Assembly: GCF_017348835.2 (NCBI RefSeq)
Contig: NZ_CP071375.1
DNA: 64,000 bases
Strand: one strand, 5' to 3'
DNA from: Escherichia coli
GTDB lineage: Bacteria > Pseudomonadota > Gammaproteobacteria > Enterobacterales > Enterobacteriaceae
Part shown: piece after piece, positions 30,001 through 36,000 of the stretch
How the letters are laid out: each line of letters opens with the position of its first letter
How positions within the stretch are numbered: position 1 is the stretch's first letter
Position numbers: made by a program

Positions 30001-33000
30001 CCGCTCCGGCATCTCTCCGTTCAGATGGTTGCCATGATGCCAGGAAATTTGGCATTTTAACAGTCCCTGTCCGTGCAATTTTGTTCAAGTGACGAGTTTG
30101 CGAGCAAAACGATGATTAAGTGGCCCTGGAAAGTACAAGAATCAGCACATCAAACTGCCCTTCCCTGGCAGGAAGCACTATCGATCCCCCTTTTAACGTG
30201 TCTGACGGAACAGGAACAAAGCAAATTAGTCACTCTTGCCGAACGTTTTTTACAGCAAAAGCGGCTTGTTCCTTTACAGGGCTTTGAACTGGATTCATTA
30301 AGAAGCTGCCGGATAGCACTTCTATTTTGCCTACCCGTTCTGGAGTTAGGACTGGAATGGCTGGATGGTTTTCATGAAGTCTTAATTTATCCTGCGCCAT
30401 TTGTGGTCGATGATGAATGGGAAGACGATATCGGTCTGGTGCATAACCAACGTATTGTTCAGTCAGGTCAGAGCTGGCAGCAAGGGCCTATCGTTTTGAA
30501 CTGGTTGGATATACAAGATTCTTTTGATGCTTCTGGTTTTAACCTGATTATTCATGAAGTCGCTCATAAGCTGGACACCCGTAACGGCGATCGCGCAAGC
30601 GGAGTTCCCTTTATTCCGTTGCGTGAGGTTGCTGGCTGGGAACACGATCTTCATGCTGCAATGAACAACATTCAGGAAGAAATCGAATTGGTTGGCGAGA
30701 ATGCGGCGAGCATTGATGCTTATGCTGCCAGTGATCCTGCTGAATGTTTTGCCGTACTTTCTGAATATTTCTTTAGCGCCCCAGAACTTTTTGCTCCTCG
30801 TTTCCCTTCATTGTGGCAACGTTTCTGCCAATTTTATCAACAAGATCCTTTGCAGAGACTGCATCACGCTAATGATACAGACTCGTTTTCGGCGACGAAT
30901 GTTCATTAATTAACAACTTTGCAGATTAATTAACCAATTGAAATGACTTATGAAATTTAGTGTTGACAGACAAGGTACCGCTAAGTAATATGCGCCCCGT
31001 TCACACGATTCCTCTGTAGTTCAGTCGGTAGAACGGCGGACTGTTAATCCGTATGTCACTGGTTCGAGTCCAGTCAGAGGAGCCAAATTCCGATGCTTAC
31101 GCTTCCTTATAAGTCCTTATTCAATTGTGATTCAATAAGTTAGCGTAAAAATCTTTCCCGATGCGTATTCAGTTTTCCCTCCGCATCCGGTTAATTTGGT
31201 GGTCAGGTTGGTTCGATTCTGGAGTGACCCCCAAATGTCTTTAAACGATTCAAAAATCCGTAACTTAAAACCCTCTTCAAAACCCGTCAAACTGTCTGAT
31301 TCACACGGTCTGTATCTGCTGGTCAATCCCGGCGGCTCGCGTATCTGGTATCTCAAGTATCGCTTCAGTGGCAAAGAGTCCCGCGTCAGTCTGGGTGCAT
31401 ATCCGCTGGTTTCACTTGCTGAAGCAAGACAACAGCGTGACGATATCCGTAAGCTACTGGCACAGAATATTAACCCCACCCACCAGCGCATGGCAGATAA
31501 AGCCGCAGCTTCTCCGGAAAAGTATTTTAAAGCCGTGGCGCTGGCATGGCATAAAACCAACAAAAAGTGGTCGGCTGATTATGCGGAACGCATTCTCGCC
31601 AGCATGAATAACCATATATTTCCGGCGATTGGTCATCTGCCCGTTACCACGCTGAAAACGCAGCATTTCACGGCGTTACTGCGGGTGATTGAGGATAAAG
31701 GCTTTCTGGAAGTCGCGTCCCGAACCCGGCAGCAACTCTGTAACATCATGCGTTACGCCGTACAACAGGGATTCACTGAAAATAATCCGGCGCAGCATCT
31801 GGAAGGCGTTACTGCGCCGCCGGTGAAAAACCACCATCCAGCCCTGCCGCTGGAACGGCTGCCAGAACTGCTTGCGCGGATCGGTGATTATCAGCAGGGC
31901 CGGGAGTTAACAAGGCTGGCGGTGATGCTGACTTTGCATCTGTTTATCCGTTCCAGTGAACTGCGCTTCGCCCGCTGGAGCGAGATTGATTTCAGAAACA
32001 AAATCTGGACCATTCCCGCCACAAGGGAAACAATTGAGAAAGTCCGTTTCTCTGGCCGTGGCGCAAAAATGCGTACTCCACATATTGTGCCACTTTCCCG
32101 ACAGGCTATTGCCATTCTGAAGCAGATACAGGATATCTCAGGTCATCTGGATCTGGTGTTCCCCGGTGATCATAATCTCTATAAGCCAATGAGTGAAAAC
32201 ACCACCAACCGGGCACTGCGGTTAATGGGCTATAACACAAAAACCGATGTGTGTGGTCATGGCTTTCGGGCAATGGCCTGTAGCGCGCTGGTGGAATCCG
32301 AACTCTGGTCACGGGATGCCGTGGAGCGGCAGATGAGCCATCAGGAGCGCAACAGTGTGCGGGCGGCATATATCCATCGTGCTGAACATCTTGATGCCCG
32401 TAAAGCCATGATGCAGTGGTGGTCGGATTATCTGGACGTGAGCCGCGAGGGGTACGTTGCGCCTTATATTTATGCGCGGCGGCATAAGGCGGCCTGAGCC
32501 AGTCATTGCGTAATTTTCTGATAATGGAAAAGCAGATCCTGATTGAATTCGGATCTGCTTTTTACATTAGACAATCTGCACCAGAAACTGATTTACCGGT
32601 ACGCCATAACTGCACCAGTTCAATGCCACCGTTTACCTGCGCCAGTCTGCCGTCGCCCATTTATATCAGGACTGCGCCAGATACCATCGGATAAACATCG
32701 ATCTGCGCCAGCTTTAGCCTTTTAAGCCCTTTGGCCTTTTCCGGTCTGGCGCTGTTACCCTTAGCCGCCCTTTACCTTTATCTGGCCTTTTTCTGGCGCA
32801 ATGATCAGAAAAATACCGTAATGCTGCACCAGAATCCTGTTAATAGGCTATACCGTTCGTAAGCACCGTTATTAAGGGGAAACCGTACAAAAAATTTCTA
32901 CGTAGAAATTTTTTCGGTGGATAACGATGAATAAAGGGTATTTTATAATATGACGACTATCAAAAATCGTTCGCTCAAACATAATTCATTGATTTATCGT

Positions 33001-36000
33001 AACGTTCCGGTGAACTCACATTGACGGCGCTGACCGGTTCTGCATTCCGCAGTTCGTCCCGGTCAGTTATTCAGGGGATTTTTCGCGAAGGGTAACAGTT
33101 CGTGCTGCCGCTCCTGCGGCCATACCGGCAGACGCTCCAGCACCTGTTTCAGCCAGCCATACGGCTCCATGCCGTTCAGCCGCGCTGTCTCCAGCAGGCT
33201 CATCACCGCTGCCGCACGATGCCCTGCCTGCAACGAGCCGGCAAACAGCCACGTATTCCGCCCCATCACCACCTGCCGGATCGCACGCTCACACCGGTTA
33301 TTGTCCAGTGGCAGCGCACCGTCATCCACGAACCGGCTCAGTTCCGTTTTGTGAGACAGTGCATATTTTATCGCCTTATGCAGCGCCGAACCCGGCGCGC
33401 ACCGCTGTTCCTGCGCCGTCAGCCACGACCACAGCGCATCCAGTTGCGGTTTCGCATACCGCTGTCGCCACTGCCGGCGCTTTTCCGGCGACCTGTGGCG
33501 GAGACTGTATAACCCGTGGATCATCTTCAGCGCCGTTCCGGCATGGGGATCGCGGTTCGCCTTATATAACGCTACGAAGCCGCGCCGCGCGTGCGCCCAA
33601 CAGCCTGCGTTGATGATACTGCCACCGTTTTTCAGCGAGTGATACGCCGCGTAGCCATCTGTCACCAGAGTCCCGCTCCAGCCCGACAGCCACGCTTCAG
33701 AATAACGCGCCGCCCGTCCGGGCTGACAGTCGAAGCAGACCACGCTGTCGCCCGTGGCTTCGCCGCTGGCATACGCCCACAGATAACCGTTCTGCACTTT
33801 CCCGCCTTTCTTCGTGTTCAGGATTTGCAGCGGCGTTTCATCCGCATGAAGCACCGGGCGGCTTAACAGTTCCGTGCGCAGCAGCTCCGCCAGCGGCATC
33901 AGCCAGACGCAGGCCGCGCCCACCCATCCGGCCAGCGTGCTCACCGGCAGCTCCACTCCGGCGCGGGCGAACACCTGCTGCTGGTGATACAGCGGCTGAC
34001 GGTCGCAGAACTTGCTGACCAGCACCTGCGCCACCAGGCCCGGCTCCGGGATGCCCTTCGGGATAATCCGTGCGGGCAGACGGCCTGAGACCACGCACTG
34101 GCAGCCGTCGCAGCCGTACTGCGGGCGGACATAACGCTTCACCACGAACTGCGCGGGGATGTAGTCCAGCCGCTCACTGATTTCATCACGGATATGGCGC
34201 AGCGGCTGGCCGCAGTCCGGACAGGCGCAGGCGTCAGGTCTGATAACCGTTTCTTCGCGTGGCAGGTGCGCCGGCAGCGGTTTGCGGGCAGGACGGGCTT
34301 TTTTCTCTTCCGGCTCCGGTAGCAGACGCGTAAGCTGCGTTTCAGCAGAAGCGATATCCGCGTCGGCATCTTCTTCGAACAGGGAACGCTGTAAGCCGCT
34401 GAAGGATTCGGCATGACGGCCAAAACGCTGCTGGCGGGCCAGCATCAGGGCTTCTTTCAGCAGATGTATCTGGTGATCTTTTTTGTGGCTTTCTTCCAGG
34501 AGGGATAACGCCAGCTTACGCAGCGTGTCGGGGTCGTTGGTGGAGAGAAGCGCGGTGATATCCATGCCGGGTATTATACGCTTTCCGGTACGGATATTCA
34601 TTTAAAATCATTGCATTAGTAACGTGCATGATGCCCATTTTGTCAGGTCATGACCGGACATTTTCTGCCAGTCGATGCCGGAGACGAGCCAGTCAAACTG
34701 TTCCGGGGTGAGTGACCATGTGCTGTCGCCGTCACGCGGCCAGGTGAAACGCCCCCGGTGCAGGCGGCGGGAGCAGAGCCAGACGCCATGTTTATCCCAC
34801 CGCAGCAGTTTGATGCGGGTGCGGTTTTTATTGGTGAAGAGGAAGGCGGCGCCGTTATGCCAGGGCATGCAGAGTGAGTTCTGCACATACATCGTGAGGA
34901 CATCAATACCGCAGCGCATATCGACGGGATGGCGGACGAGGAAGAGGCGCTCAGGCTTCAGCATGTTTCACCGCCCGGAGAACGTCAGGAAGTTGAGCGG
35001 GAAGGCAGTCAATACGACAACCGCCGGGAAGATGGAGGGTGATGACGCCACCGGCTGGCGCGGGTTCAGGTGATGGCTGAATACAGACGGGCAGCAGTAC
35101 GGGGTGCTCAGCAACAGAGACGCCGTCATCCGGCAGGCGAAGCCATTCGTGAAAAGCATGTGAAGGAAGGCCGTGGAGGCGACAATACTGAAGCCGGGTA
35201 AGGCCGCTGGCGCGCCAGTCACGGACATGCTGAATTTTTTGCGTGGTGGAGTGGGTGGTCATGTTTTTATCTCACGGAATAAACATGACCACGATGCTAC
35301 AGGGCTGAAAAAATTTGAAAATGTGAGTTCACCGGAACGTTACAATTTAATAGTTGATGATTATTGATTTTGTCAGTGTTGATAGGAAAGCGTACAAAAA
35401 ATTTTGCCCCCAAAATTTTTTGTACGAAAACCGATGAATAACCCGGGATTAATAGGAAACCACCCCAAATTATTTGCCCCAAATAATTTTGCCCGAAAAC
35501 CGATGGATAACGCGATCTTTTCAAGGCAACGGCTATCAGTCAGTATCCCTTCGCCCGTAAACCTGCGCCACATACCGCCCGCGCCCGTCGCCGTGGCCCA
35601 AATCCATCGACGTCATCGCCAGCGCTTCCTTCTCACAAAATCCCTGCGCCAGATAATGACGAATGGCATCCTGCGCCCATGCGTAGCGCAACGAGTGCGG
35701 GGAATATGCGCCCGTTAAGCCAAGACGTGACGCCTGACTGTGCCAGTATTTCATCGCGCTTTTCAGATCCGGCTTATCTATCAGTCTGCCGTGACGATCT
35801 TCTGCCACCGCCAGCGCATTATCCAGCGCGTTTCTGACAGCAACAGCATCAATAATAATTGTCTCACGGGGTCGCCCGCCTTTGGTGCCGAACACCACGG
35901 TTAAGCGAGTGTCACCAAGATCCAGCGCCTGCCGCCACGTTTTCAGCGATTGTGCGCTTTGTACCGCCTCCTGCGAACGTAATCCCATCAGCCTTGAGAG

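What the first reader, a model, noticed from the sequence alone, without database searches (positions are those of the whole stretch)
32886..35520. Family of AT-rich palindromes with DnaA-box-like flanking motif, split by an IS66-family insertion
Three related units lie either side of the IS66-family element: a 26-bp perfect palindrome AAAAAATTTCTACGTAGAAATTTTTT (32889..32914), a 15-6-15 perfect inverted repeat CGTACAAAAAATTTT-GCCCCC-AAAATTTTTTGTACG (35391..35426) and CAAATTATTTG-CCC-CAAATAATTTTG (35466..35491). Each is followed by GATG(A/G)ATAAC-type sequence whose reverse complement (TTATCCACC / TTATCCATC) is one or two mismatches from the DnaA box TTATCCACA. TTGAT repeats also surround the IS. 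The array sits just downstream of a tyrosine recombinase and near PemIK, so it could be a plasmid-type origin, partition or recombination site that the IS66 element has interrupted.
Basis: seen in the sequence. Interest (0 to 1): 0.5.

Follow-up and report, generated by a model that had tools for sequence, protein, structure and literature searches.

The report
Palindromic repeats flanking a relaxase-like gene
The AT-rich palindromes are real, conserved 65-70-bp repeat units beside a relaxase-like gene in a small tRNA-Asn genomic island, so they probably serve that gene's DNA-mobilisation module and not a DnaA-dependent plasmid origin; their function is untested.

Summary
All three palindromes sit at the stated coordinates. 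An IS66-family element (32999-35343) splits the array, and IS-free relatives show it uninterrupted.

The interpretation mostly fails.
- The locus is chromosomal (E. coli PE164), in a decayed ~12.7-kb island at tRNA-Asn.
- DnaA-box matches are at chance level and vary between orthologues.
- No rep or par gene is present.

Each palindrome is the centre of a nested unit: outer half-sites TATTNATMGG / CCKATYAATA, T-rich linkers, and an inner AT-rich palindrome. The outer half-sites are conserved in sequence without covariation. The inner arms co-vary (10 of 16 pairs carry compensatory changes).

Copy number ranges from 0 to 5 among relatives. Unit 1 is nevertheless better conserved (93-99%) than the neighbouring gene (79-92%).

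The units track "int2", a PF12835 tyrosine-recombinase-fold protein related to the SGI1 atypical relaxase MpsA. They do not track the P4-type integrase. Distant conjugative-element relatives carry a STAXI motif in the same position.

Best reading (confidence ~0.4): these are DNA-level architectural or recognition units of a MOB_M-type mobilisation module. The family is not in Rfam and is absent from plasmids. Function is untested.

The parts
31010..31085 (+). tRNA-Asn (asnT, next to mtfA), the island's integration site (attL side).
   Evidence: Rfam tRNA hit at 72.6 bits. RefSeq annotation of NZ_CP114128.1. No attR repeat of its 3' end occurs in the window other than at the other tRNA-Asn genes.
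31235..32497 (+). P4-type integrase with an arm-type DNA-binding domain, convergent with int2.
   Evidence: NCBIfam NF007246 at E 6e-68 and PHROG 1. Annotated as a tyrosine-type recombinase/integrase.
32528..32563 (.). Canonical bidirectional intrinsic terminator (A-run, G+C-rich stem, T-run) at the end of int.
   Evidence: Read. Inverted repeat I4. Conserved in relatives as AAAAAGCAGATCC...GGATCTGCTTTTT.
32576..32834 (+). Cluster of CTGCRCCAG repeats: six direct copies plus two inverted 8/9 variants. It encloses a pyrimidine-rich conserved core at about 32712-32793.
   Evidence: Family D3. Fourteen of the 15 occurrences in the 64-kb window lie within 32576-36830. The core is 89-93% identical across genera, against 79-92% for the int2 coding sequence. 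The motif tracks the int2 clade and not the integrase type.
32867..32934 (-). Unit 1: a 26-bp perfect palindrome (32889-32914) with flanks CGTTATTAAGGGGAAACCGTAC and CGGTGGATAACGATGAATAA. It is the best-conserved unit.
   Evidence: It is 93-99% identical across eight relatives from several genera, exceeding the int2 coding sequence in every comparison.
32999..35343 (-). IS66-family insertion (tnpA, tnpB, tnpC) that splits the array. It has no target duplication, and 13 bp are missing relative to IS-free relatives.
   Evidence: Terminal repeats read. RefSeq annotation. IS-free sequence.
35377..35442 (-). Unit 2: outer half-sites TGTTGATAGG and CCGATGAATAAC, with an inner 16-4-16 perfect palindrome (35391-35426).
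   Evidence: z about -6. A compensatory change CGTACA..TGTACG to CATACA..TGTATG is seen in L003 and L007.
35448..35511 (-). Unit 3: outer half-sites ATTAATAGG and CCGATGGATAAC, with an inner palindrome CAAATTATTTG-CCC-CAAATAATTTTG (35466-35491). It starts 25 nt beyond the int2 stop codon.
   Evidence: The loop reads GGG on the int2-sense strand in this lineage and CCN in most relatives.
35536..36420 (-). int2: a 294-aa tyrosine-recombinase-fold protein and putative MOB_M-type (MpsA-like) relaxase.
   Evidence: Pfam PF12835 at E 5e-63 plus PF12834 at E 1e-35. Motifs LRSQE, GTKGGRPRE, HSLRY and LGH...Y are present. It is 26% identical over 191 aa to SGI1 MpsA, whose best Pfam family is also PF12835.
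36526..36655 (-). EFASI RNA motif immediately upstream of int2.
   Evidence: Rfam RF02957 at 118.7 bits (gathering score 51.2), full length.
36710..36830 (-). Four CTGCRCCAG copies on the int2-sense strand. They flank a perfect 13-bp G+C-rich inverted repeat, CGTGCGTCACTTT-N16-AAAGTGACGCACG (36751-36792). This is the better candidate for the transfer origin proper.
   Evidence: The hairpin is conserved, with a different inner stem, in the tRNA-Phe island. It lies 330-370 nt upstream of int2; oriT_SGI1 lies 304-428 nt upstream of mpsA.
36983..37122 (-). Degenerate STAXI motif.
   Evidence: Rfam RF01728 at 37.3 bits, below the gathering score of 40.5. Full STAXI copies flank int2 homologues in distant relatives.

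Best explanation
**What it is.** The three palindromes are the centres of three copies of a ~65-70-bp nested inverted-repeat unit. Read on the int2-sense strand, a unit is TATTNATMGG, a TTTT(C) linker, an AT-rich palindrome of 11-18-nt arms with a 0-6-nt loop, a (G)CTTT linker, then CCKATYAATA.

**Where it sits.** The units belong to the non-coding flank of a mobilisation module inside a small integrative island at tRNA-Asn. The module is a STAXI remnant, a G+C-rich hairpin with CTGCRCCAG repeats, an EFASI motif, int2, the units, a second CTGCRCCAG cluster with a conserved core, and a bidirectional terminator. int2 is an MpsA-like (PF12835) tyrosine-recombinase-fold protein, most likely an atypical MOB_M relaxase.

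**How it most likely works.** The units act at the DNA level as architectural or recognition elements. The sequence-conserved outer half-sites would be bound by a protein (Int2 or a host factor). The inner palindrome would extrude as a hairpin or cruciform when the region is unwound or single-stranded. Together they would help assemble or process the complex that forms on the adjacent CTGCRCCAG array. A STAXI motif, which is also strongly structured, occupies the same position in distant conjugative-element relatives.

**In this window.** The module is probably dead. The IS66-family element separates unit 1 and the repeat cluster from int2, no attR is present, and the cargo gene is truncated.

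**Shown.** The anatomy, conservation, covariation, linkage to int2, homology of int2 to MpsA, and the absence of DnaA-box or Rep signals.

**Inferred.** Relaxase activity of Int2, protein binding to the half-sites, hairpin extrusion, and any role in transfer.
For: **Linkage to int2.**
- Units and CTGCRCCAG clusters occur next to int2 homologues of >=65% (units) or >=73-80% (clusters) identity. This holds whether the neighbouring integrase is 35% or 100% identical, and whether or not the HTH, hyp153 or PemK genes are nearby.

**int2 is relaxase-like.**
- PF12835 and PF12834 cover it full length, and the catalytic motifs are present.
- SGI1 MpsA, recovered next to oriT_SGI1, has PF12835 as its best Pfam family and aligns with int2 at 26% identity over 191 aa, E 3e-8.
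- PMC10484663 uses PF12835 as the signature of MpsA-type relaxases.
- Preprint 10.64898/2026.01.13.699239 reports MOB_M relaxases as abundant in chromosomes, 96% of them next to an integrase, and often annotated as integrases.
- A 47% homologue sits beside ICE-type T4SS genes on a plasmid typed 'non-mobilizable'.

**Constraint.**
- Unit 1 is 93-99% identical across relatives and the core 89-93%, against 79-92% for the int2 coding sequence and 74-85% for the spacer.

**Structure.**
- In 21 units, the inner helix is 95.8% paired and 10 of 16 pairs carry compensatory double changes. The covariation score is 0.264 against 0.137 in shuffles (0 of 500 reach it).
- The outer arms show no compensatory change, and two positions are systematically mismatched. 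That is the pattern expected of sequence-read half-sites.
- Pairing is kept by Watson-Crick changes. G-T (9 cells) and A-C (7 cells) mismatches are equally rare. This pattern looks more like a DNA palindrome than an RNA helix.

**Position.**
- Distant relatives have STAXI, EFASI, int2, STAXI in that order, all on the int2 strand.
- The units' flanks are T-rich on the int2-sense strand on both sides: 359 T against 106 A in 44 palindromes.
Against: **No function has been tested.**
- Copy number ranges from 0 (Brenneria and Lonsdalea loci L017, L020, L021) to 5, and one locus keeps only a remnant (L013). The units are therefore dispensable for whatever the module does there.

**The position is wrong for a transfer origin.**
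- In SGI1, and in the preprint's survey, oriT lies upstream of the relaxase gene. The array lies downstream.
- A better oriT candidate, the G+C-rich hairpin at 36751-36792, exists upstream.
- Querying the SGI1 oriT sequence matched none of the 5,426 E. coli genomes, which include the island carriers. The array and the repeat cluster matched no plasmid record other than one Salmonella record that itself carries the int/int2 module.

**Other weaknesses.**
- Int2 is only 26% identical to MpsA, and no member of its clade has been assayed.
- Palindromic symmetry could be kept by hairpin-templated repair rather than by selection.
- The consistent strand orientation may reflect common descent only.
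Confidence: 0.4

Rival explanations
1. The units are RNA-level elements in the int2 3' untranslated region. They would be weak intrinsic terminators, insulators or mRNA-stabilising hairpins between the convergent int2 and int genes, comparable in role to BIME/REP elements.
For: The first unit starts about 25 nt after the int2 stop codon. Every hairpin is followed on the int2-sense strand by a T-rich run, (G)CTTTCC. Unit 2 is called terminator-like on that strand. The location between convergent genes is typical of such elements.
Against: The stems are almost pure A-T (4 G-C pairs of 16 in unit 2), and only one of the three units passes even a permissive terminator scan. A strong bidirectional terminator already serves both genes, and it suffices in relatives with no units. 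In several relatives units also lie beyond the CTGGYGCAG cluster, just before that terminator, where a terminator would be redundant. G-U wobble is not enriched over A-C mismatches. The outer half-sites are conserved in sequence rather than in pairing.
Confidence: 0.2
2. The units are a locus-bound, essentially selfish or neutral palindromic repeat. It would expand and contract by slippage or unequal recombination and keep its symmetry through hairpin-templated repair, with no function for the island.
For: Copy number varies from 0 to 5. Deletions run exactly between direct repeats (L056, L024), and palindrome arms are excised precisely in L013. The loop of unit 3 is inverted between lineages. 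An IS66-family element and, in LF82, an IS200 element are tolerated in the region.
Against: Unit 1 and unit 2 are as conserved as the adjacent protein-coding gene or more so, across several genera. The outer half-sites are nearly invariant in 21 units. The family does not spread to any other place in the genome.
Confidence: 0.2
3. The palindromes are recombination target sites for Int2 acting as a true site-specific recombinase, for example in resolution, inversion or cassette exchange.
For: They are adjacent to a gene whose tyrosine-recombinase catalytic motifs are all recognisable. Inverted arms around a short spacer superficially resemble lox, FRT or dif sites. Deletion variants have end points in the repeated CGATGAATAAC.
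Against: The spacer or loop length varies from 0 to 6 nt, and its sequence differs between units and between orthologues. That is incompatible with a fixed crossover region. No inversion polymorphism of int2 relative to int was seen in about 25 loci. The deletions are equally well explained by homology between direct repeats.
Confidence: 0.1
4. One reading: a plasmid-type replication origin or partition site with DnaA boxes, iterons and AT-rich palindromes.
For: The region is AT-rich. There is one 8-of-9 match to a DnaA box (TTATCCACC). There are 9-bp direct repeats (CTGCRCCAG) at a spacing of about 27-35 bp.
Against: DnaA-box matches are at or below chance, 13 against 17.3 expected in 20 kb, with one in the array. 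That match is not conserved between orthologues. No Rep, ParA or ParB was recognised among the eight island proteins scanned. The locus is chromosomal, and the array matches only one of 72,556 plasmid records. The 9-mers track int2, a recombinase-fold protein and not a replication initiator.
Confidence: 0.05

Closest known systems
The SGI1 mobilisation module: oriT_SGI1, sgm-sRNA, mpsA, mpsB (Kiss et al. 2019, PMC6414798; Nagy et al. 2021, PMC9299015)
   Same: Both are integrative mobilisable islands with a PF12835 tyrosine-recombinase-fold protein. Both have structured non-coding DNA with inverted repeats next to that gene. In both, a structured RNA element lies between the gene and an upstream G+C-rich inverted repeat: sgm-sRNA in SGI1 (per PMC9299015) and EFASI here.
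   Different: The array lies downstream of the gene, where SGI1 has mpsB. It is AT-rich, whereas oriT_SGI1 is 60% G+C. The SGI1 oriT sequence matched no E. coli genome, the island carriers included. Int2 carries its own N-terminal SAM-like domain (PF12834) and is only 26% identical to MpsA. No transfer data exist for this clade.
STAXI motif (Rfam RF01728; Weinberg et al. 2010, from my own knowledge: associated with Ssb, topoisomerase, antirestriction and XerDC-integrase genes, often repeated, and proposed to act as single-stranded DNA)
   Same: It occupies the same position, immediately downstream of int2 homologues, in distant relatives (L030, L042). Like the units it is repeated, strongly structured and oriented with the int2 strand.
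   Different: The array gives no match to any Rfam model at E <= 1. STAXI is G+C-rich and modelled as a pseudoknot, whereas the units are AT-rich nested palindromes. The function of STAXI is itself unknown.
REP/BIME and ERIC extragenic palindromes of enterobacteria (from my own knowledge)
   Same: They are short imperfect palindromes in variable tandem numbers between convergent genes.
   Different: Those families are dispersed in hundreds of copies per genome and are G+C-rich. This family occurs at one place, in 50 of 5,426 genomes, and only beside int2.
Single-strand initiation (ssi) signals and single-strand promoters of plasmid leading regions, such as F Frpo and phiX174-type primosome assembly sites (from my own knowledge)
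   Same: They are strand-oriented hairpin elements of about 60-100 nt near transfer functions, present in several copies and individually dispensable.
   Different: There is no sequence resemblance. No -35/-10 arrangement can be read in the folded unit. Nothing was tested. This is a functional analogy only.

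Membership tests
DnaA-dependent or iteron-type replication origin | Two or more conserved DnaA boxes (TTATNCACA), more frequent than chance. | tested here: not met
   There are 13 matches with <=1 mismatch in 20 kb, against 17.3 expected, and only one lies in the array. That site varies between orthologues.
DnaA-dependent or iteron-type replication origin | A cognate initiator (Rep) gene next to the repeats. 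| tested here: not met
   NCBIfam, PHROGs and Pfam scans of eight island proteins recognise an integrase, the PF12835 protein, PemIK, a Ner/SfsB-like HTH and a NACHT protein. Two proteins (153 aa and 534 aa) gave no NCBIfam or PHROGs match. No Rep was recognised.
DnaA-dependent or iteron-type replication origin | Supports autonomous replication. | not testable with these tools
   This needs cloning into a replication-deficient vector.
Transfer origin of a MOB_M (MpsA/MobK/TcpM-type) mobilisation module | An adjacent gene for a tyrosine-recombinase-like relaxase. | tested here: met
   int2 hits PF12835 at E 5e-63. SGI1 MpsA's best Pfam family is PF12835 at E 1e-10. The pairwise alignment has E 3e-8. 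The catalytic motifs are present. Relaxase activity itself is untested.
Transfer origin of a MOB_M (MpsA/MobK/TcpM-type) mobilisation module | oriT lies in the intergenic region upstream of the relaxase gene and contains functionally important inverted repeats. | tested here: not met
   The array is downstream (3') of int2. A different element, the G+C-rich inverted repeat at 36751-36792, does satisfy this criterion.
Transfer origin of a MOB_M (MpsA/MobK/TcpM-type) mobilisation module | Sequence similarity to a validated oriT (oriT_SGI1). | tested here: not met
   The oriT_SGI1 query finds no match in any of the 5,426 E. coli genomes, which include the 50 that carry the array.
Transfer origin of a MOB_M (MpsA/MobK/TcpM-type) mobilisation module | Required in cis for mobilisation by a helper conjugative element. 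| not testable with these tools
   This needs mating assays with deletion derivatives.
Dispersed extragenic palindromes (REP/BIME, ERIC) | Many copies scattered through the genome. | tested here: not met
   It occurs in 50 of 5,426 genomes, with a median of one place per genome, always in this island family.
Rho-independent terminator | A G+C-rich stem followed directly by a U-run. | tested here: inconclusive
   Unit 2 passes a permissive scan with 4 G-C pairs of 16 and the tail CTTTCCTATC. Units 1 and 3 do not pass.
Tyrosine-recombinase core site (lox, FRT or dif type) | Two inverted binding arms around a spacer of fixed length (6-8 bp) that is identical between partner sites. | tested here: not met
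   Loops range from 0 to 6 nt and differ in sequence between units and between orthologues.
Known structured RNA or ssDNA motifs (Rfam 15, including STAXI and EFASI) | A match to the family covariance model. | tested here: not met
   There is no hit at E <= 1 anywhere in 32498-35535. By contrast, EFASI upstream of int2 scores 118.7 bits.
Plasmid centromere (sopC or parS type repeats) | Repeated palindromes together with cognate parA and parB genes. | tested here: not met
   Repeated palindromes are present, but no ParA or ParB was recognised among the eight island proteins scanned.

The most novel reading that the evidence does not exclude
The units may be a previously undescribed class of strand-oriented DNA hairpin signals that replace STAXI in small mobilisable islands. 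On this reading the tyrosine-recombinase-like relaxase, or the recipient's priming machinery, would read them on single-stranded DNA during conjugative transfer. That would give the first defined cis-element, beyond a minimal oriT, for the mechanistically obscure MOB_M relaxases. It would also provide a handle on how small defence islands at tRNA genes move.
Probability: 0.2. Interest if true: 0.65.

Novelty: new variant of a known kind. Interest (0 to 1): 0.4.

Why it matters
Small tRNA-linked islands carrying anti-phage systems are common, but how they move is mostly unknown. Here the cargo is a HEPN protein and a truncated EruA-type NACHT protein.

A 2026 preprint argues that tyrosine-recombinase-like (MOB_M) relaxases, usually mis-annotated as integrases, are the most common relaxases in the chromosomes of the six species it surveyed. 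Only three such relaxases have been studied, and the mechanism is unclear.

This locus shows that one clade of these genes travels as a cassette with a defined set of conserved non-coding elements:
- the EFASI motif;
- a G+C-rich hairpin;
- clusters of a 9-mer (CTGCRCCAG);
- the nested palindromic units reported here.

These give concrete, short targets for binding, nicking and mobilisation experiments.

If the units are only terminators or neutral repeats, the finding is ordinary. It still corrects a tempting but wrong 'DnaA-box origin' reading.

Tried and rejected
- **DnaA boxes or oriV.** Rejected on chance-level counts and lack of conservation.
- **Dispersed repeat family.** Rejected by BLAST against 5,426 E. 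coli genomes.
- **Copy of a plasmid oriT, ori or par site.** Neither the array nor the repeat cluster matches any of the 72,556 plasmid records, apart from one Salmonella record that carries the same int/int2 module. Short-motif mimicry cannot be excluded.
- **Arm-type sites of the P4-type integrase.** Rejected. They lie 1.5 kb from the tRNA core, and the motifs persist beside integrases only 35-60% identical.
- **Integron attC-like sites.** The R''/R' consensus (RYYYAAC / GTTRRRY) does not fit GGATAAC / GTTATCC on reading.
- **IHF sites.** No consistent WATCAANNNNTTR match was found by reading the sequence across orthologues. This was not formally scanned.
- **Sigma-70 promoter inside the array.** A conserved TATAAT (32944-32949, + strand) lacks a usable -35 box and was not called by the scan. 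Left open.
- **Strand bias in G-T wobble as a test of an RNA or single-strand role.** None was found, 9 against 7.
- **Getting the preprint's MOB_M profile or tables.** No supplementary files are held. The SGI-4 paper gave no oriT.
- **Int2 against solved structures by sequence.** No hit at E <= 1.
- **Pfam on the 153-aa neighbour.** No hit.
- **EFASI in SGI1.** No Rfam match between oriT_SGI1 and mpsA. The EFASI/sgm-sRNA parallel is therefore positional only.

Full report
**1. The observation**

Each is followed by a GATGRATAAC-type sequence.

They are far beyond chance. The window has seven perfect inverted repeats with arms of at least 11 nt. About 0.1 is expected from composition-preserving block shuffles. 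Two of the seven are the finding's. The other five are G+C-rich inverted repeats, several with flanking A/T runs like intrinsic terminators.

As single strands, unit 2 folds with z = -6 and unit 1 with z = -2.6. Unit 3 is not distinguishable from shuffles by energy alone.

The element between them is an IS66-family insertion at 32999-35343. It has 24-bp inverted ends and the genes tnpA, tnpB and tnpC.

**2. Where the window comes from**

The window is the chromosome of E. coli PE164, at 100% identity. The region is a ~12.7-kb island inserted at tRNA-Asn next to mtfA. In order it contains:
- a P4-type integrase;
- the array;
- a second, 294-aa 'integrase domain' gene on the other strand, here called int2;
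- PemIK;
- a Ner/SfsB-like HTH protein and a 153-aa protein;
- a HEPN protein and a NACHT (EruA-like) protein, the latter truncated by an IS3-family element.

No attR repeat is left. Together with the IS66-family insertion, this makes the copy in the window a decayed one.

**3. The uninterrupted locus**

IS-free relatives at three different tRNA-Asn genes carry the complete array (L002 at 96% identity, L003 and L004 at 89%).

Where the IS sits, they have 13 bp (ATAGATAACCACG) that the window lacks. The IS has no 8-bp target duplication.

The array is not a dispersed repeat. It matches 50 of 5,426 complete E. coli genomes, with a median of one place each, and never an E. coli plasmid. Among 72,556 plasmid records, the array and the adjacent repeat cluster match only one Salmonella record.

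**4. Anatomy of a unit**

I compared 44 palindromes from 20 loci and aligned 21 units. Each palindrome is the centre of a nested unit. On the int2-sense strand it reads TATTNATMGG, TTTT(C), an AT-rich palindrome, (G)CTTT, CCKATYAATA.

The two layers behave differently.
- The inner helix is paired in 95.8% of cells. Ten of its 16 pairs show compensatory double changes. The covariation score is 0.264, against 0.137 in shuffles, and none of 500 shuffles reaches it.
- The outer arms show no compensatory change. Two positions are almost always mismatched. These arms are conserved as sequence, not as pairing.

Mismatches in the inner helix are rare, and G-T (9 cells) is no commoner than A-C (7 cells). 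That looks like a DNA palindrome rather than an RNA helix.

The linkers are T-rich on the int2-sense strand on both sides, 359 T against 106 A. This holds even in units whose two outer half-sites are swapped.

**5. Variation and constraint**

Copy number varies widely among relatives:
- 0 in the Brenneria and Lonsdalea loci;
- a remnant with the palindrome arms excised in Kluyvera;
- 1-2 in several loci;
- up to 5 where units lie on both sides of the neighbouring repeat cluster.

Some variants are deletions between the direct repeats CGATGAATAAC.

Even so, unit 1 is 93-99% identical across eight relatives from several genera. The adjacent int2 coding sequence is 79-92% identical, and the spacer between units 74-85%.

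A related island at tRNA-Phe has a single, almost perfect 64-bp palindrome made of the unit-1 flank, directly after int2.

**6. What the units travel with**

CTGCRCCAG occurs as six direct copies plus two inverted 8/9 variants at 32576-32834. Four more copies lie in the opposite orientation upstream of int2 (36710-36830), and four lie inside int2, where they fall in 'LAQ' codons (the protein has five LAQ tripeptides). In all, 14 of the 15 occurrences in the 64-kb window lie within 4.3 kb.

The downstream cluster encloses an ~80-nt core that is 89-93% identical across genera.

Both the 9-mers and the units follow the int2 clade. They are present whether the neighbouring integrase is 35%, 56-60% or about 90-100% identical. 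They do not depend on the HTH, hyp153 or PemK genes. The array is therefore part of an int2 cassette and is not an attachment-site arm of the integrase.

**7. What int2 is**

Int2 matches Pfam Integrase_1 (PF12835, E 5e-63) and Phage_int_SAM_2 (PF12834) over its full length. It keeps the recombinase motifs LRSQE, GTKGGRPRE, HSLRY and LGH...Y.

PMC10484663 uses PF12835 as the signature of the SGI1 atypical relaxase MpsA. I checked this directly.
- The published oriT_SGI1 sequence located an SGI1 fragment.
- The 321-aa gene beside it has PF12835 as its best Pfam family, at E 1e-10.
- That protein aligns with Int2 at 26% identity over 191 aa, E 3e-8, including the catalytic motifs.

A 2026 preprint (10.64898/2026.01.13.699239) reports such 'MOB_M' relaxases as the commonest relaxases in the chromosomes of the six species it surveyed. 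It also reports 96% of them beside an integrase, usually annotated as integrases.

In line with this, a 47% homologue of Int2 sits next to ICE-type T4SS genes on a 72-kb plasmid. That plasmid is typed 'non-mobilizable'.

Int2 is thus probably a relaxase-like protein, and the island an integrative mobilisable element. No member of this clade has been assayed.

**8. Known motifs around int2**

Rfam finds a full-length EFASI motif immediately upstream of int2 (118.7 bits) and a degenerate STAXI motif further upstream at 37.3 bits, below threshold.

In about-50% relatives from Photorhabdus and Serratia the order is STAXI, EFASI, int2, STAXI, all on the int2 strand. The AT-rich array therefore occupies the place of the downstream STAXI copy. 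No Rfam family matches the array itself.

Upstream of EFASI lies a perfect 13-bp G+C-rich inverted repeat (36751-36792) flanked by the 9-mers. It is conserved, with a different inner stem, in the tRNA-Phe island.

That hairpin lies 330-370 nt upstream of int2. This resembles oriT_SGI1, which lies 304-428 nt upstream of mpsA. [quoted passage not shown]

By analogy this upstream hairpin, not the array, is the better candidate for the transfer origin proper.

**9. Interpretation**

The DnaA-box, origin or partition reading is not supported.
- Box matches are at chance level, 13 against 17.3 expected, with one in the array.
- The matching site is not conserved between orthologues.
- No Rep or Par protein was recognised among the eight island proteins scanned.
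- The locus is chromosomal.

A recombination crossover site is unlikely, because loop length (0-6 nt) and loop sequence vary.

A terminator role is possible but weak. Only unit 2 passes a permissive scan. A strong bidirectional terminator already serves both genes. Some units lie where a terminator would be redundant.

A neutral repeat is hard to reconcile with conservation above that of the coding sequence.

The best-supported reading is that the units are DNA-level architectural or recognition elements of the int2 mobilisation cassette. The outer half-sites would be read by a protein. The inner palindrome would be able to extrude as a hairpin or cruciform. The units would work alongside the 9-mer array, in the position held by STAXI in relatives. 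I put this at about 0.4. The steps involving binding, extrusion and transfer are inferred, not shown.

**10. Novelty**

The components around the array are known: tRNA islands, MOB_M-type proteins, EFASI and STAXI. The unit family itself is not in Rfam. It does not resemble the one validated oriT I compared it with (oriT_SGI1), and it occurs in only one of the plasmid records searched.

I rate it a new variant of a known kind, of moderate interest. Its value is as a defined, testable cis-element for a poorly understood relaxase class.

Noticed in passing
window 32576-32834 (+), 36710-36830 (-), and inside int2 at 35644, 36142, 36226, 36331: The 9-mer CTGCRCCAG is concentrated around int2. Fourteen of its 15 occurrences in the 64-kb window lie within 4.3 kb. 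The two flanking clusters are in inverted orientation. The copies inside the gene fall in 'LAQ' codons (the protein has five LAQ tripeptides). The motif follows the int2 clade, not the integrase type.
   Followed up: partly
window about 32712-32793: A pyrimidine-rich non-coding core (on the int2 strand, ...TAAGGGTAACAGCGCCAGACCGGAAAAGGCCAAAGGGCT...) is 89-93% identical across genera, more than the int2 coding sequence. Its function is unknown. A reduced version is present in the tRNA-Phe island.
   Followed up: partly
window 36526-36655 (-): A full-length EFASI RNA motif (Rfam RF02957, 118.7 bits) lies in the int2 leader. It also occurs upstream of int2 homologues in L002, L030, L042 and L055. 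It sits where SGI1 encodes its sgm-sRNA, but SGI1 gives no EFASI match.
   Followed up: partly
window 36751-36792 (-): A perfect 13-bp G+C-rich inverted repeat, CGTGCGTCACTTT-N16-AAAGTGACGCACG, has an inner stem CCGC/GCGG. In the tRNA-Phe island (L055:4712-4745) the outer stem is kept and the inner stem is GTTGC/GCAAC. It is the best candidate for the oriT hairpin, at the same distance from int2 as oriT_SGI1 is from mpsA.
   Followed up: partly
window 36983-37122 (-); L030 and L042: A degenerate STAXI motif lies here (37.3 bits, below the gathering score). Distant relatives carry full STAXI copies on both sides of int2.
   Followed up: partly
window 38927-39132 (-): Matches to C4 antisense RNA, isrK and the c4-a1b1 target lie just upstream of the 153-aa ORF and the Ner/SfsB-like HTH gene. 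This is a P1/P7 immI-like regulatory cassette inside the island. It is also present in L002 and L055.
   Followed up: no
window 32999-35343: The IS66-family element has no 8-bp target-site duplication. Thirteen bp (ATAGATAACCACG) that IS-free relatives have at this point are missing. This suggests an adjacent deletion or an IS-mediated rearrangement. The identical insertion is in strain F2_81.
   Followed up: partly
window 40861-43701 (-) and beyond: The 946-aa protein matches only positions 407-1318 of the 1318-position EruA (NACHT antiphage) model, and an IS3-family element abuts it. No attR copy of the tRNA-Asn 3' end is present. The island in this strain is therefore truncated and probably immobile.
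   Followed up: partly
L055 (E. coli RM14723, tRNA-Phe next to yqgA): The same core module (int, int2, HTH, about-155-aa ORF) sits at tRNA-Phe with different cargo (an AAA ATPase and AbiE). It has one long palindrome after int2 and no CTGCRCCAG cluster. L056 swaps PemIK for a RelE/ParE-type pair. The int2 cassette therefore recombines with different integrases, toxin-antitoxin pairs and defence cargo.
   Followed up: partly
window 36643-37499: This stretch, which holds the STAXI remnant and pemK, is about 80% identical to a segment of many Salmonella plasmids of roughly 170-320 kb. Their replicon type was not checked.
   Followed up: no
L057 (Citrobacter plasmid NZ_CP056253.1): A 47% homologue of int2 lies directly after ICE-type T4SS genes (TIGR03756/03757 and TraG_N) on a 72-kb plasmid typed 'non-mobilizable'. 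This fits the view that this protein family is an overlooked relaxase.
   Followed up: partly
window 32944-32949 (+): A perfect TATAAT, conserved in most relatives, lies in the spacer after unit 1 and points towards int2 (antisense). It has no good -35 box and was not called by the promoter scan. The IS66-family insertion lies 50 bp downstream of it.
   Followed up: no
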